A DNA stretch of 64,000 nucleotides, from positions 18,477,262 to 18,541,261 of the forward strand of contig JARFYF010000064.1 in NCBI GenBank assembly GCA_030265395.1, read 5' to 3'. Made by a program: the position numbers. This document shows, in pieces, positions 26,201 to 32,200 of this stretch; within the stretch, counting starts at the first letter, position 1, and each line of letters begins with the position of its first letter. The DNA is from Rhina ancylostomus (taxonomy: Eukaryota).

Positions 26201-29200
26201 TTTCCATTCACTTGAGTGGAGAGGAACTGCTATAAAGGACCAAGTAGGTTTATTTAATTTTTAAAATTATTTTTTAAAGCAATACGATTGCTTTGTTTTA
26301 ATTTAAACAAGTCTAATTTGTTTTTTAATTGCTTAAATTAAGAGTTTTATTTTCAATGTTTGAACACTCAGAAGCTGTTGTTTTAAGCCAAAGGATAGGA
26401 CCTAGCCAATTGTCAATGAATCTTACTTGACATCTTTGCAGGCAGTGCTAGTTCCTACAGCCACCTTCCTCCCAACCACATGATGGGATTTATTTCTGGA
26501 AGGCCCTGTCAAAACACATGGCTTCATAATGGAGGACAGAATGGATGCCCGGCTTTGAGCAGCAAGCAATCCTCAGGAAATCGGCACTGGGATCGTACCA
26601 ATTATTCCACAGGTCAGAGGCGAATACGGAAGCTCACAGAGACTGCAAAATCTCAGTCAATACTTCAGCTGAGACCTAACCAATGACTCACACAGCTTCT
26701 TTGTTTTGTACTCTGCTTCAGTCCAAGAAGTGAGACTATATTTTTCTAATAATGCTTCAAGAAAGAAATGGATCAAATCAATGCTTCAAAATGCTAAAAG
26801 GAAATCATCACAAGTATGTTTCTTAATAAAGCACCAAGTATTTGAACACTTAGTTTTTTCTTGAACTAACCTGATGTTGGACAATTATACGTTGTTGATG
26901 CATAGCCACCACTTTGCCTCTGTGAGCGTTTTGGTGTGTAGCGGTGCCATTCCTGTAGCTCCAAAGATAAACGTTCTTCACTTGTATTGTATCTGGGAAC
27001 TGGGGAGCAAGATGCATGACTCTCATAGTGCGAATGAGGGTCAACGTTTTCCTGTGAATATAAACAATGTCCTCAATCATCAGTTGTCAACAGTCACTCA
27101 TGAAAAGATAAAAGCAATTCCAGATTCTTTTCTGAACTTGCCTTCCCATACCCTTTAAGTGACTTGTAATCACTTTTTCTGTATTGCACTTAGTATTTCA
27201 GAGTGCCACATCACTTATCTTGCTAAAAAAGGAACCCACTTGTGTACAACCACGCAAGAAGAGTTGACATTAATTGTGTTTAAAATTGCCTTCTATTTTC
27301 CTCCACCCCAAGTTCCTTAAATTTCCCAAAACAGCAACGATTGGTATAATTGAAATCAATTGCATCTATCCACATCATTTCCATTATATCTTCCCAATAT
27401 CCTTTTCAGTTCTCAGTTTTAAAATGCAATATTTTACAGAGAATTGCCAACCTTTCTTTTATAATGCAACTTCTGCAATAAACCATACCTGTCAAGGTTC
27501 TGAGTTCTGGCCCTCAATTTGGCTCCTTTAATGCCTTGTTGTCCAGCACATGCAGTCAATGCTGGACTGATTACATAACGACACACACCTGAGCCCCATC
27601 AGGGGCCTAGCATAAGTGCCTGGGTTTCTCTAGCACTAGTTGCCAGAGTATTGGTCNNNNNNNNNNNNNNNNNNNNNNNNNNNNNNNNNNNNNNNNNNNN
27701 NNNNNNNNNNNNNNNNNNNNNNNNNNNNNNNNNNNNNNNNNNNNNNNNNNNNNNNNGCTCCTAGTGCTTAGAGTGGTCTACTCCAGAGCAGTCCTGTGTT
27801 CTCTATTTCTTTCTGCAGATCCAGTTTGTGTTGGGATTCCTCTTCAGATCTCTGAGGCAAGATTCCTTCCTGTTGCTGCCTGTGTTTTGTCCAGAGGAAG
27901 TATCCTGACTCCAGGCTTGTATCGGTGTGCTGCATTTGGGTTCTCTATAAGCTTGCTGTTTGATCAACATCGTGACAATACCAGCTGCAGCAGAACTTGT
28001 AAGCCTTCCTTCTGGTAATACTGACCCCATAAATGGGATGCACAACAACAGAACTCATCCATAACCCTTCTGATTACATTTTGATCTCAACCACTTTCCT
28101 TAAATCTACTTAATATTGCAGTTATTCATAAAATTTTGTTCTACAATATGCATCTGCCCAAACTTAAAGTATTTGCTATCGTTATGTTTCAGACCTGTTT
28201 CAATGGTCTCCCAACATCATCCCTTCTAAAAAATCAGAGGTAAGGTAGGGAAATGGGATATTGGAATATTATGTGAAGGCAGAATTAAGGTAGTGGATCA
28301 GTTCTGACCTCATGAATGGAAGAAAATGATTAAATGGATCGATTTGCCTACTCATCATCCTCTTACTTTACGAGTACCCAATTGAAAAGTTGACTTGCTA
28401 TTCCTTCTCCAGTTTGATCCCATTTTAAATAATCTTTAGGCACTGACACCATACATTTATATAATTATCTTACCCAATGACCACAAAGTAAATGCTTTGC
28501 TCAACTACTCCAACTAAGAATATTTTGCCTAAAGATATTTCATGAGATCTTGAAAATTTGTCAGAAATATGGTTTAAGAACTACTACATTATCAAATCAT
28601 CACTAGATTATGTGAAGCCAGATATTTATCTCAGTACACAGGCAAACTGCTGTTTCCTGCGAGATGTGATTGGTAATCCAGTAGGTCACTATGGTTAGAG
28701 TCATAGAATCAGAGTTATACAGTACGGAAAACATGCCCTTCGGCCCAACTCATCCATGCTGACCAAGTTGCTACCTGAACTAGTCACATTTGCCTGCGTT
28801 TGGGCTCATATTCCATCTAAACCCTTCCTATCCATGTATCTGTCCAACTGTCTTTTAAATATTGTAACTGTACCTATAACTACCACTTCCCTTGGTAACT
28901 CGTTCCATATTTGCACCACCCTGTGTGGTGGTTGGTCAACGTCTGTTCACAGGTTCTACCTCCTCAACTTGCTGATTACCTTCTTCTTCAGGGGAAATCC
29001 TTGAAGGTATTAAATCACTCCCTTCTAAGAATGGTGTTGGCTGATAATGGCCAGTGTTTCTATCATGAACTTCTTGCGTGGTGTCCTGCTTTACTCCAAG
29101 GGCAACAGGTGATTGAGGCCTGGCAGGACTTGATGGAGGTGACCCACTGGTTGCTGCAGTATTTGAAGCAGAGCTAGCTTGCTGTTTATGTTTAAATTTA

Positions 29201-32200
29201 AATGAATCACTCCCCTTAGGAGGCATGGGAGGCATTGAGCCAGATTCACCGCCCACCACCCTCAGGTCTCCTTTAAGTCTTTCCCCTCTCACCTTAAACC
29301 TATGCCTTTTAGTTTTAGACTCCCCTACCCTGGGAAAAAGACTGTGACCATTTACCTCATTTATTCCCCTCCAGTTTGCCCATTCAATCACGTCCAAAGA
29401 ATCCTTCTGGGGAAATTTCAAGCACAATGTTTCACTTTGGGCTGATTAAAGGTTTCACGCAATGGCTTGCATGGTCAGCTAAACGTGGGCAGAGCAGCAT
29501 AGTGGTAAAGTTGCTGTATTATTACTTGTGATGCCAATATTTTCTCTTCTCCCTCCTCCCGGCAGGCACAAGATACAAACGCCTGAAAGCATGTACCACC
29601 AGCCTCAAGAACAGCTTCTAACTTGCTGTTATAAGACTATTGAACGGTCCCCTAGTACGATAAGATGGACTCTTGACCTTACAATCTACCTCGTTATGAC
29701 CTTGCACCTTAATGTCTGCCTGCACTGCACTTTCTCTGTAACTGCAACACTTTATGCATTCTGTTATTATTTCCTTTGTACTACCTCAATGCACTGTTGT
29801 AATGAAATGATCTGCACAGACAGCATGCAACACAAGTTTTTCACTGTACCTCAGTACATGTAACAATAATAAACCAATTTACCAATACTAGTTATCTGGA
29901 TATTATAGTTACAATCCTAATAATTACAGACTGATGAGTATGAACCTCTCATATTGTTGCAAAAACCCATCTGATTTACTTTCTAGGTCTACTTGCATGT
30001 AACTACAAACCATTGCAATGTGGTTGATCCTTAACTCTTTATGAAATGGCCTAGCAAACCATTCAGTATAGGGAAAACTATGGGGGCACTATAAGAGTTG
30101 GCTAAGACTGTGAACCTGCACGTTCTGTGACCAAGTGAACAAAATAAAATGAACATGCTGGAACTCATTAGCTTGATTCAATCCTTAATAATGGTCACGA
30201 GGACCAAACATAAAATGTACCTGCTGAGCTGGATCTAAGCAAATCATCAGCACCTTAATGAAAGAATGTAAAATTTCTAACTATTTTGCATCATGGTCAA
30301 TAAATGGGTATGTATGTAGGTGTTCTCATCTTAAATCTGCTAAAATTCAAAACTGTCTAGGTAATAAAACATTTTAATGATTATAAAAATGCACATTTCT
30401 ATCCCCTCAAAGTCCCACCTATGCTGGCTATCTTAGTTCTAACCAATGGTATGCTCATGCTTCATTTTACACTGTTAATGATCCTCTCAATAATTTCAGA
30501 AGTTTGAAAAGCAACACAAAACTCAGCATCCTCAGAGATTCCCACATTTATATTTTTCAAAGTAAGCAAATGACTTACTTATGTCAATGTCACTCGGGCA
30601 TTCAGTCTGTTCACACACTTCAACCTGGTAGAATCTACAGTACAATCATTAACAGATCTGTGCAGGAATTAACAAGCCACAAACCCGCAATGAGGAAGTC
30701 TAGTTGCTTTTCTACTGATCATAAGTTTTCAATCCAAATAATGTTATGTTTTTACATCTACCAATTGGTTGGGTAAACAATATCCTTGTTAATTCTCACC
30801 TCGTGACATTAGAATAAATCAAATCAACTAGTCCAATTTGAAGGACAAAGGGGAATTATCAAAATACCATTTATTGTTTGCTTATTTTTTCACCCACATG
30901 AAGCTCTCCAGCCTTCTGTACATTCTCATAAGGCAACTGACAATGGTCTTATCAGAGGTACACTGGACATGGTCTCGACAGGGAGGATTGATATCAACCA
31001 ATCAGACTTGAAGGTAGAATCACTATATTTTAATTGTAGAGGAGTCTAATTCAACAAATAGATGGACCTTACCATTAACTCAGCTGATGAATGTTAACTA
31101 TCTACATAAGACGTGAAAAGTCTGATGTCCAATGACTGTCCTCTGTACATTTTTTTTCTGAAAAGTTTGTCAGTCACTCTAGTTGCTTTTTCCTGGATCT
31201 TGATAATCAGGCTTCTCTCAAAAGTCAAGGGTTCAACACTTACAAGCAGCAGCAAATATACAGAAATGCTACTTCCTTTTCCAATTGTTCCTCTCACCAC
31301 CAAAATTTAGTTTGTAATTGACTTAAGTGACAATCAACTCATTCAAATCTGTAACTGTTTCCATGTTTATAAGGTCAACACTATCGTAATGATTTTAAAA
31401 CAATCATTGAAATTCATGTAATTAACAAATTACCTGAGGGGACAGTCCAGAAATATTCAAAGGGGCAAGTTTGCTTGGCCTTAAAGCAGGAGCAGATTTT
31501 GGTCGACGTCTGTTCACAGGTTCTACCTCCTCAACTCGCTGATTACCTTCTTCTTCAAGGGAAATCCTTGAAAGTATTAAAGCACTCCCTTCTAAGAATG
31601 GTGTTGGCTGATAATGGCCAGCATTTCTACCATGAACTTCTTGCGTGGTGTCCTGCTTTACTCCAAGGGCAACAGGTGATTGAGGCCCGGCAGGACTTGA
31701 TGGAGGTGACCCACTGGTTGCTGCAGTATCTGAAGCAGAGCTAGTTTGCTGTTTATGTTTAAATTTAAATGAATCACTCCTCTTAGGAGGCGTGGGAGGC
31801 GTTGAGCCAGATTCACTCTTTGAGGACTGCGAAGAATGTGTCTGCTTTTGTGTTGGGGACAGATAATCCATTTTTGGAGGAGTCTGTGGCCTTTTGAAAT
31901 TATCTGGATCAAAGACAGGCTTCCTCTGTTTTGGCATTTTGAATATGGAGAGTTTCCCAGGTTCAGGTGAAACGTCCACCATTGTTTTTGGCCAGGTGCC
32001 ACCGTTATGTTTAGGACTGTGCCCCTTTTCAGCATCAGTATCTACCACCACACAATCTGCAACTGCTGGGTCAAAGGTGAAACACCTTTTCTCGTGCTCT
32101 GCAATCCCATAGATCTCCGAGCTGAGAGGACCAACTTTAAGTTCTGAATAGTTGCAGCAAGTGTGTTCAGCTGTCCTGTATGTATTAGGCTGCAAAGAAC

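What the first reader, a model, noticed from the sequence alone, without database searches (positions are those of the whole stretch)
28905..29370. Fragment of the gene's own exon captured inside an intronic CR1, in frame with CR1 ORF2
Seen: 28932-29249 is an ungapped, same-orientation copy of exon segment 31499-31816, 2567 bp away. It has 14 mismatches in 318 bp, about half at CpG sites. It splits a CR1 3' end and replaces the short 'aaaaag..gcc' stretch present in another CR1 here (compare 62270-62287). Both junctions carry locally templated filler: caccaccct appears at 28914-28922 and again at 29254-29262, and gtggtgg on the left is its inverted copy. On the sense strand, CR1 ORF2 C-terminus (..FKVRGERLKGDLR) reads in frame into DLG5 peptide (ESGS..SDSFKFKHK..PVNRR) until a CGA>TGA stop. 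Inference: a templated insertion from double-strand-break repair (Pol theta/MMBIR-like), or CR1 RT switching onto DLG5 RNA. The direct repeat could also promote gene conversion or a deletion removing the exon's donor.
Basis: partly seen in the sequence, partly recalled or inferred. Interest (0 to 1): 0.72.

Follow-up and report, generated by a model that had tools for sequence, protein, structure and literature searches.

The report
Exon fragment copied into intronic LINE
A 318-base piece of a DLG5 exon was copied long ago into an old retrotransposon remnant in the next intron, most likely as a repair patch at a DNA break, and now decays as junk, so it is a neat but ordinary example of a known kind of mutation.

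Summary
Window 28932-29249 is an ungapped, same-orientation copy of 31499-31816 (318 bp, 14 mismatches, 7 in CpG sites). The source lies in the large exon of DLG5a on the minus strand, 97% amino-acid identical to Pristis pectinata DLG5a. The copy sits in the next intron and splits the 3' tail of a 5'-truncated LINE fragment.

Twelve named cartilaginous-fish orthologues place 10 of the 14 codon differences in the copy, including one stop. Only 2 of 7 source CpGs survive, so the copy is a decaying pseudo-fragment. The reading frame shared with the LINE tail is a one-in-three coincidence on a roughly 37-codon remnant.

The junctions show a small target deletion, 3-10 nt of filler and a 9-mer repeated on both sides (9 of 5000 shuffles). 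The LINE pieces carry about three times more private change than the copy (9.1% against 3.1%, p=0.005). This favours a templated patch laid into an already resident element (about 0.6) over reverse-transcriptase template switching during insertion (about 0.2).

"CR1" could not be verified. Genome-wide copies and orthologous introns could not be checked. This is a new member of a known kind, of low to moderate interest.

The parts
28932..29249 (-). 318-bp copy of part of the DLG5a large exon, in the sense orientation of the gene. It is a decaying pseudo-fragment.
   Evidence: Ungapped match with 14 mismatches. tblastn to P0073 residues 917-1021 gives 87.6%. 10 of 14 codon differences are placed in the copy. 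2 of 7 source CpGs are kept.
31499..31816 (-). Source segment inside the exon. It ends 62-65 nt before the exon's 3' end.
   Evidence: exon bounds.
31434..32459 (-). Large exon of DLG5a (residues 702-1043 of the Pristis pectinata protein P0073); bounds are those of the tblastn match.
26818..27063 (-). Next DLG5a exon downstream. With the large exon it bounds the roughly 4.4-kb intron that holds the element.
   Evidence: tblastn to P0073 residues 1040-1122.
28690..29371 (-). 5'-truncated LINE 3' fragment with no poly(A), including the nested exon copy. Its 3' end is approximate (+/- 10 nt).
   Evidence: Homology to window copies 966-1298 and 12473-12705. The three-way comparison gives 19 private differences in 209 columns.
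28809..29371 (-). Remnant of the element's ORF2 tail, given as one broken gene. It has 1 truncation at the 5' side and 1 insertion coupled with 1 small deletion. There are 0 stops and 0 frameshifts inside the two retained pieces.
   Evidence: The upstream piece is open within ORF 28936-29427. The downstream piece was accepted as 41 residues without a stop. 103 unnamed relatives were found.
28914..28931 (+). Left junction: first copy of CACCACCCT, then the element's own sequence, then 3 extra nt (TGG) that form a short TGG stutter with the start of the copy.
29250..29262 (+). Right junction: 4 nt of unknown origin (CGCC), then the second copy of CACCACCCT. Its last 3-4 nt may be the element's own.
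28936..29427 (-). Chance 163-aa ORF that reads from the intron through the element's upstream tail piece into the exon copy. It matches no Pfam family.
966..1298 (+). Comparison copy 1 of the same repeat family (76-78% identity), not interrupted by foreign sequence.
12473..12705 (+). Comparison copy 2 of the same repeat family (75-83% identity). It keeps the stretch that the focal copy lost.

Best explanation
A LINE 3' fragment already lay in the intron downstream of the large DLG5a exon.

Later a break inside that fragment was closed by a templated patch, in these steps (inferred):
- One broken end lost about 10-15 nt.
- It picked up a few nucleotides copied from the element's own sequence just across the break, giving the second CACCACCCT or part of it.
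- It then primed synthesis on the exon 2.5 kb away in cis for 318 nt.
- It rejoined the other end through a 3-nt stutter.

The template was most likely the exon DNA (microhomology-primed template switching, of the MMBIR or synthesis-dependent end-joining type). A reverse-transcribed piece of DLG5 transcript used as the patch is a less likely variant.

The product has no function. It is transcribed only as intron, it lost 5 of 7 CpGs, and it took 10 peptide-changing substitutions, one of them a stop.

Shown: the duplication, its position, the target deletion, the filler, the decay, and the direction of the changes. Inferred: the break, the order of the steps, the enzyme and the template molecule.
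For: - **Donor intact and in cis.** It lies 2567 bp away.
- **The copy interrupts one collinear element.** A small deletion is visible against copies 1 and 2.
- **Junction features.** There are 3 nt and 4-10 nt of filler and a 9-mer repeated on both sides of the insert (9 of 5000 shuffles). There is no poly(A) and no abutting target-site duplication.
- **Match to class 2 templated sequence insertions.** Their published features are 73-414 bp, microdeletion, microhomology, non-templated nucleotides, and no target duplication or poly(A) (PMC5110952, text parts 1-2 read).
- **Match to polymerase-theta patchwork filler.** It is copied from break-flanking sequence (PMC12426944, passages read).
- **Age.** The element's pieces carry 19 private differences in 209 three-way columns (9.1%). 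The exon copy has 10 derived changes in 318 nt (3.1%); Fisher p=0.005.
Against: - Polymerase-theta insertions are usually under 25 bp (PMC12426944), so 318 nt needs a more processive template switch.
- Published class 2 insertions come from distant loci, not from 2.5 kb away (PMC5110952).
- The age test rests on only two comparison copies. The private differences may partly reflect subfamily differences that predate insertion. With all 14 differences counted, p rises to 0.04.
- If only 6 nt of the 9-mer are true filler, the repeat is near chance (599 of 5000 shuffles).
- The same-sense orientation is what reverse-transcriptase switching predicts. Repair would give it only half the time.
Confidence: 0.6

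Rival explanations
1. Template switching by the element's own reverse transcriptase during its insertion. The enzyme copied the 3' tail of the LINE RNA, jumped onto DLG5 RNA (perhaps the nascent transcript at the site) and copied 318 nt. It then jumped back onto the LINE RNA a few nucleotides out of register and went on until 5' truncation.
For: - Element, exon copy and gene all have the same sense. This model requires that.
- The first-strand direction runs left to right through both junctions, with short stutters at each.
- Double template jumps by LINE enzymes are described (PMC2104539, abstract read).
- mRNA/LINE-1 chimeras are mostly sense-oriented, 15 of 17 (bioRxiv 10.1101/2025.02.02.635956, passages read).
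Against: - Known chimeras carry the host piece at the 5' end of the LINE part, not LINE on both sides (same two papers).
- Returning to the same RNA within about 15 nt of the leaving point needs three internal jumps.
- The element's pieces look about three times older than the exon copy.
- No second copy of the chimera exists in the window.
Confidence: 0.2
2. Retroposition in trans. A LINE endonuclease nicked the resident element and its reverse transcriptase copied a fragment of DLG5 RNA into the nick (class 1 templated insertion). The repeated CACCACCCT would be a remnant of a target-site duplication.
For: A 9-mer is repeated directly on both sides of the insert. The donor is a transcribed exon.
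Against: - There is no poly(A) or other tail at the insert's 3' end.
- The 9-mer copies do not abut the insert; they stand 9 nt and 4 nt away.
- Target sequence is lost rather than simply duplicated.
- The insert is an internal piece of an exon with neither end at a transcript end.
Confidence: 0.07
3. Assembly artefact: a falsely placed or duplicated read segment.
For: The window has 11 N runs, one of them 1.2 kb from the copy.
Against: - The 14 differences have a clear CpG-decay direction.
- The junctions into a single collinear repeat copy are unique.
- No N lies within 1.1 kb of either copy.
Confidence: 0.02

Closest known systems
Class 2 templated sequence insertions (TSI/TSIP; Onozawa and Aplan, PMC5110952)
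   Same: - A patch of a few hundred bp is copied from an intact donor.
- There is no poly(A) and no clean target-site duplication.
- There is a microdeletion at the target, with microhomology and a few nucleotides of unknown origin at the junctions.
- The 318 bp falls inside the reported 73-414 bp range.
- The donor is transcribed.
   Different: The reported donors lie on other chromosomes or far away. Here the donor is 2.5 kb away in the same gene. An RNA origin, proposed for that class, cannot be tested here.
Polymerase-theta-mediated end joining with templated insertions, and MMBIR-type template switching (PMC12426944; PMC8421209, search listing only)
   Same: Short filler is copied from the sequence next to the break. 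The junction is a patchwork with bases of unknown origin and is primed at 3-4-nt microhomology. The template lies in cis.
   Different: The main 318-nt segment is more than ten times the usual polymerase-theta insertion (under 25 bp). No enzyme dependence can be shown from sequence.
LINE chimeras made by reverse-transcriptase template switching (U6/L1, mRNA/L1, and the fungal tripartite chimera; PMC2104539, bioRxiv 10.1101/2025.02.02.635956)
   Same: A host transcript piece is fused in sense to a LINE 3' part. Double jumps are documented.
   Different: In those chimeras the host piece sits at the 5' end and the whole chimera is flanked by one target-site duplication. Here LINE sequence lies on both sides of the host piece, and the outer 6-nt repeat is at chance level.
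CR1-group LINEs of cartilaginous fishes (PMC13343379)
   Same: - The fragment is 5'-truncated and has no poly(A).
- Other copies share its 3' tail.
- It is very common in such genomes: the paper gives 22-34% for sharks and rays.
   Different: No tool returned a named CR1 relative, and no reverse-transcriptase domain is present in or next to the fragment.

Membership tests
Class 2 templated sequence insertion | Insert copied from elsewhere with the donor left intact | tested here: met
   Both copies are present and the donor exon is open and conserved.
Class 2 templated sequence insertion | Size of tens to a few hundred bp (73-414 bp reported) | tested here: met
   318 bp; range from PMC5110952.
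Class 2 templated sequence insertion | No poly(A), no polyadenylation signal and no target-site duplication abutting the insert | tested here: inconclusive
   There is no A or T run at either end. A 9-mer is repeated on both sides but stands 9 nt and 4 nt from the insert.
Class 2 templated sequence insertion | Microdeletion, microhomology and non-templated nucleotides at the junctions | tested here: met
   About 10-15 nt of the element are lost against copies 1 and 2. There is a TGG stutter on the left and 4 nt of unknown origin on the right.
Class 2 templated sequence insertion | Donor at a distant locus | tested here: not met
   The donor is 2567 bp away in the same gene.
Class 2 templated sequence insertion | Patch derived from RNA | not testable with these tools
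   The segment lies wholly inside one exon, so no splice junction can tell RNA from DNA.
Polymerase-theta templated insertion | Filler copied from sequence flanking the break | tested here: met
   CACCACCCT occurs at 28914 and 29254; 9 of 5000 shuffles reach this. If only 6 nt are filler, 599 of 5000 shuffles reach it.
Polymerase-theta templated insertion | Insertion generally under 25 bp | tested here: not met
   The main segment is 318 bp; size rule from PMC12426944.
Polymerase-theta templated insertion | Dependence on the enzyme | not testable with these tools
   Sequence alone cannot show it.
LINE template-switch chimera | Host piece in the same sense as the LINE part | tested here: met
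LINE template-switch chimera | Host piece at the 5' end of the LINE 3' part | tested here: not met
   Element sequence continues for 113-122 nt (to 29371) on the 5' side of the host piece.
LINE template-switch chimera | Whole chimera flanked by one target-site duplication | tested here: inconclusive
   Only a 6-nt word is shared by the two outer flanks (28677 and 29370). About one such match is expected by chance in windows of that size (the expectation is my arithmetic).
LINE template-switch chimera | LINE part and host part of the same age | tested here: inconclusive
   9.1% private change against 3.1% derived change, p=0.005. This leans against equal age but rests on two comparison copies.
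CR1-group LINE | ORF2 with endonuclease and reverse-transcriptase domains | tested here: not met
   The fragment is 5'-truncated. None of the window's 279 stop-free stretches of 55 aa or more passes a Pfam cut-off for such a domain, and none lies near the element. This is expected for a truncated copy, so it says little about the family.
CR1-group LINE | Tail peptide related to a named CR1 ORF2 | tested here: inconclusive
   - The word-index search found no candidates.
- The full HMMER scan found 103 unnamed hits, with best E 1.5e-9.
- 0 of the 20 longest hits carry a reverse-transcriptase domain.
- The protein I had in mind is the C-terminus of chicken-type CR1 ORF2 (recalled, not tested).
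CR1-group LINE | 3' end without poly(A), shared by many 5'-truncated copies | tested here: met
   There is no A run at 28660-28700. Copies 1 and 2 share the tail and differ in 5' extent.

The most novel reading that the evidence does not exclude
The exon piece was taken up by the element's own reverse transcriptase. While inserting into the DLG5a intron, the enzyme left its own RNA for the gene's transcript at the site and then came back. This would be a natural double template jump in a CR1-group element that nests host coding sequence inside LINE coding sequence in frame. It would show that these elements, which fill a quarter or more of ray and shark genomes, can pick up and could carry exon fragments.
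Probability: 0.2. Interest if true: 0.5.

Novelty: new member of a known kind. Interest (0 to 1): 0.25.

Why it matters
It is a clean, datable germline example of a long templated insertion in a cartilaginous fish. The donor, the target and both junctions are preserved within 3 kb, so the order of events can be read from orthologous introns of related rays.

It has no visible effect on the gene. The copy is intronic, broken and too diverged for efficient recombination with the exon (longest identical run 57 bp).

It would gain weight only if the chimera is found elsewhere in the genome, or if the element never occurs without its cargo. Either result would point to exon pickup by a CR1-group reverse transcriptase.

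Tried and rejected
1. **Naming the element.**
   - The 41-aa tail found no candidates in the word-index search.
   - The full scan gave 103 unnamed short hits.
   - Pfam on the 20 longest of the 103 gave no reverse-transcriptase domain. It gave unrelated domains in 5: DUF4110, Spectrin, ALKBH8_N, RRM_1 and a zinc finger/SH3.
2. **Pfam on the exon ORF and on the chimeric ORF:** 0 families.
3. **Pfam on all 279 stop-free stretches of 55 aa or more:** only DLG5 domains (PDZ, SH3, dbPDZ_assoc), scattered sub-threshold hits and one weak RVT_1 hit at the window's end.
4. **Rfam on 27800-32600:** nothing at E up to 1.
5. **Search for a template of the 4-nt right-hand filler and other junction words within 6 kb.** The only find was an 11-mer at 28922-28932 that recurs inverted in the same exon (32044-32054). 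About 0.3 such matches are expected by chance (my arithmetic), and most of that word is the element's own sequence. I rejected it as a template.
6. **Target-site duplication around the whole element:** a 6-nt word only, at chance level.
7. **Gene conversion between the copies.** The 14 differences are spread with a largest gap of 57 nt, so there is no tract.
9. **Inverted repeats or transposon ends around the insert:** none.
10. **Alternative origins rejected.**
    - The exon is not the derived copy: it is conserved in all 12 outgroups.
    - The flanks are not two independent element fragments: they are collinear with only 13-18 nt between them in other copies.
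Full report
**Observation**

The stretch 28932-29249 is an ungapped, same-orientation copy of 31499-31816. It is 318 bp long with 14 mismatches (95.6%) and a spacing of 2567 bp, and similarity stops sharply at both ends. blastn gives E 1.8e-147 and finds only these two copies in the 64-kb window. 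No N run lies between 27757 and 35194. Seven of the 14 mismatches lie in CpG sites. The source has 7 CpGs, of which the copy keeps 2. The description is therefore correct and far beyond chance.

**The gene**

The source lies in a 339-aa minus-strand ORF at 31422-32441. Searched on its own, this single exon matches DLG5 proteins. It is 97% identical over its whole length to DLG5a of Pristis pectinata and 86-87% identical to three skate species. It is 75-84% identical to the listed sharks and 66-72% to the two Callorhinchus records.

tblastn of the named Pristis protein P0073 against the window places DLG5a exons on the minus strand from 55.8 kb down to 49 bp. The large exon is at 32459-31434 and the next exon at 27063-26818. 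Pfam hits to PDZ, SH3 and the DLG5 inter-PDZ region agree. The copy therefore lies in the 4.4-kb intron just downstream of its source. I examined the gene exon by exon.

**The host of the copy**

The flanks of the copy are two collinear pieces of one interspersed repeat on the minus strand. 28709-28913 matches 1298-1096 and 12705-12558. 29259-29371 matches 1077-966 and 12544-12473. Identity is 75-83%, and those copies have only 13-18 nt between the two parts.

The upstream piece is open in frame. The downstream piece gives 41 codons to a stop. There is no poly(A) at the 3' end. This is the anatomy of a 5'-truncated LINE tail. As a broken gene, the ORF2 remnant has one truncation, one insertion coupled with one small deletion, and no stops or frameshifts inside the retained pieces.

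The name CR1 could not be verified:
- The tail found no word-sharing proteins.
- It found 103 unnamed, mostly short hits in the full scan.
- None of the 20 longest hits has a reverse-transcriptase domain.

CR1-group elements make up 22-34% of shark and ray genomes (PMC13343379, passages read). The assignment is therefore likely on prior grounds, but it is not shown here. My impression that the tail resembles the C-terminus of CR1 ORF2 is recalled, not tested.

**Direction and age of the changes**

All 14 nucleotide differences fall in different codons. Thirteen change the peptide, one of them to a stop, and one is silent. I polarised them with 12 named cartilaginous-fish orthologues:

| Outcome | Codons |
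|---|---|
| Exon state matches the outgroup majority | 10 |
| Copy state matches the outgroups | 2 (10 of 11 and 4 of 8 informative species, Pristis included) |
| Neither state matches | 1 |
| Silent, cannot be polarised from protein | 1 |

About 10 changes (3.1%) therefore arose in the copy and 2-4 in the exon. The copy is unconstrained: all 10 of its changes alter the peptide. It has lost 5 of 7 CpGs.

**The shared reading frame**

The frame shared with the element's upstream piece (ORF 28936-29427) has a prior chance of one in three. The element's downstream piece is out of phase with the copy, as read from the coordinates. The chimeric ORF matches no Pfam family.

**Junctions**

Read on the plus strand, the left side is the element's own sequence, then 3 extra nt (TGG) that form a short stutter with the start of the copy. 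The right side is 4 nt of unknown origin (CGCC), then CACCACCCT, then the element. The same 9-mer lies 9 nt to the left of the copy.

Two 30-nt junction flanks share a word this long in 9 of 5000 shuffles. The last 3-4 nt of the right-hand copy may be the element's own. For a 6-nt word the figure is 599 of 5000. Against copies 1 and 2, about 10-15 nt of the element are missing at the site.

**Mechanism**

The set of features is:
- an intact donor;
- a few hundred bp inserted;
- a microdeletion at the target;
- short filler, partly copied from beside the break;
- no poly(A) and no abutting target duplication.

This matches class 2 templated sequence insertions. They are 73-414 bp, are read as patches at double-strand breaks, and may derive from RNA (PMC5110952, parts 1-2 of 4 read). 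It also matches the patchwork filler of polymerase-theta end joining, whose insertions are, however, usually under 25 bp (PMC12426944, passages read). Template switching at microhomology of the MMBIR type also makes templated insertions (PMC8421209, search listing only).

The rival is switching by the element's own reverse transcriptase. Double jumps are known (PMC2104539, abstract read). mRNA/LINE-1 chimeras are mostly in sense, 15 of 17. In those chimeras the host piece sits at the 5' end, not between two LINE parts (bioRxiv 10.1101/2025.02.02.635956, passages read).

**The one test that bears on the choice**

In three-way alignments with copies 1 and 2, the focal element has 19 private differences in 209 columns (9.1%). 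Copies 1 and 2 have 23 and 28, and 5 columns differ in all three. The copy has 10 derived changes in 318 nt. Fisher p is 0.005, or 0.04 if all 14 differences are charged to the copy.

This says the element is older than its cargo, which favours repair of a resident element. The test is weak. It uses two comparison copies, and private differences may include subfamily differences that predate insertion.

Same-sense orientation favours switching by a factor of two. A donor 2.5 kb away in cis favours a DNA template or the local transcript. I put the explanations at:

| Explanation | Confidence |
|---|---|
| Post-insertion break repair (DNA template more likely than an RNA patch) | about 0.6 |
| Reverse-transcriptase switching | about 0.2 |
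| Retroposition in trans | about 0.07 |
| Assembly artefact | about 0.02 |
| Not covered by these models | the remainder |

**Consequences**

The longest uninterrupted identity is 57 bp, and the differences show no conversion tract. Rfam finds nothing in 27800-32600, and no inverted repeats frame the insert.

**What stayed unchecked**

- Other copies of the chimera in the genome.
- Orthologous introns.
- Long reads and expression.

No eukaryotic genome or read collection was available. The cluster look-up and the Atlas could not be used, and paper supplements were closed. My five literature searches were aimed at mechanisms, not at proving absence. I make no claim that such a case is not in print.

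**Verdict**

This is a real and well-preserved templated insertion of an exon fragment into an intronic LINE remnant. It is decaying, with no sign of function. It is a new member of a known kind, of low to moderate interest.

Noticed in passing
window 29539-29700 and 52530-52680: Another interspersed repeat next to the focal element. The two stretches match at 77% in inverted orientation. The family was not identified.
   Followed up: no
window 63629-63886 (+): A weak, sub-threshold Pfam match to the reverse-transcriptase family RVT_1 (E 0.005, 17 bits against a cut-off of 29.6) at the edge of the window. It may be a decayed retroelement.
   Followed up: no
window 31434-32459 (-): The DLG5a exon is 97%, not 100%, identical to the Pristis pectinata protein. 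It differs from it at sites where the intronic copy still agrees with Pristis. The exon has therefore itself taken 2-4 changes since the duplication, and the window comes from a close relative of that record.
   Followed up: partly
window 13222-14357: Five ORFs of 307-334 aa listed by the ORF listing span the N run 13376-14139 and are artefacts of the masked stretch. A DLG5a exon (P0073 residues 1377-1423) abuts that run at 13228-13368.
   Followed up: partly
window 28922-28932 and 32044-32054: An 11-nt word at the left junction recurs in inverted orientation inside the same DLG5a exon. About 0.3 such matches are expected by chance (my arithmetic), and most of the word is the element's own sequence.
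   Followed up: yes
Only the part 5' of the break site aligns significantly with the focal element.
   Followed up: yes
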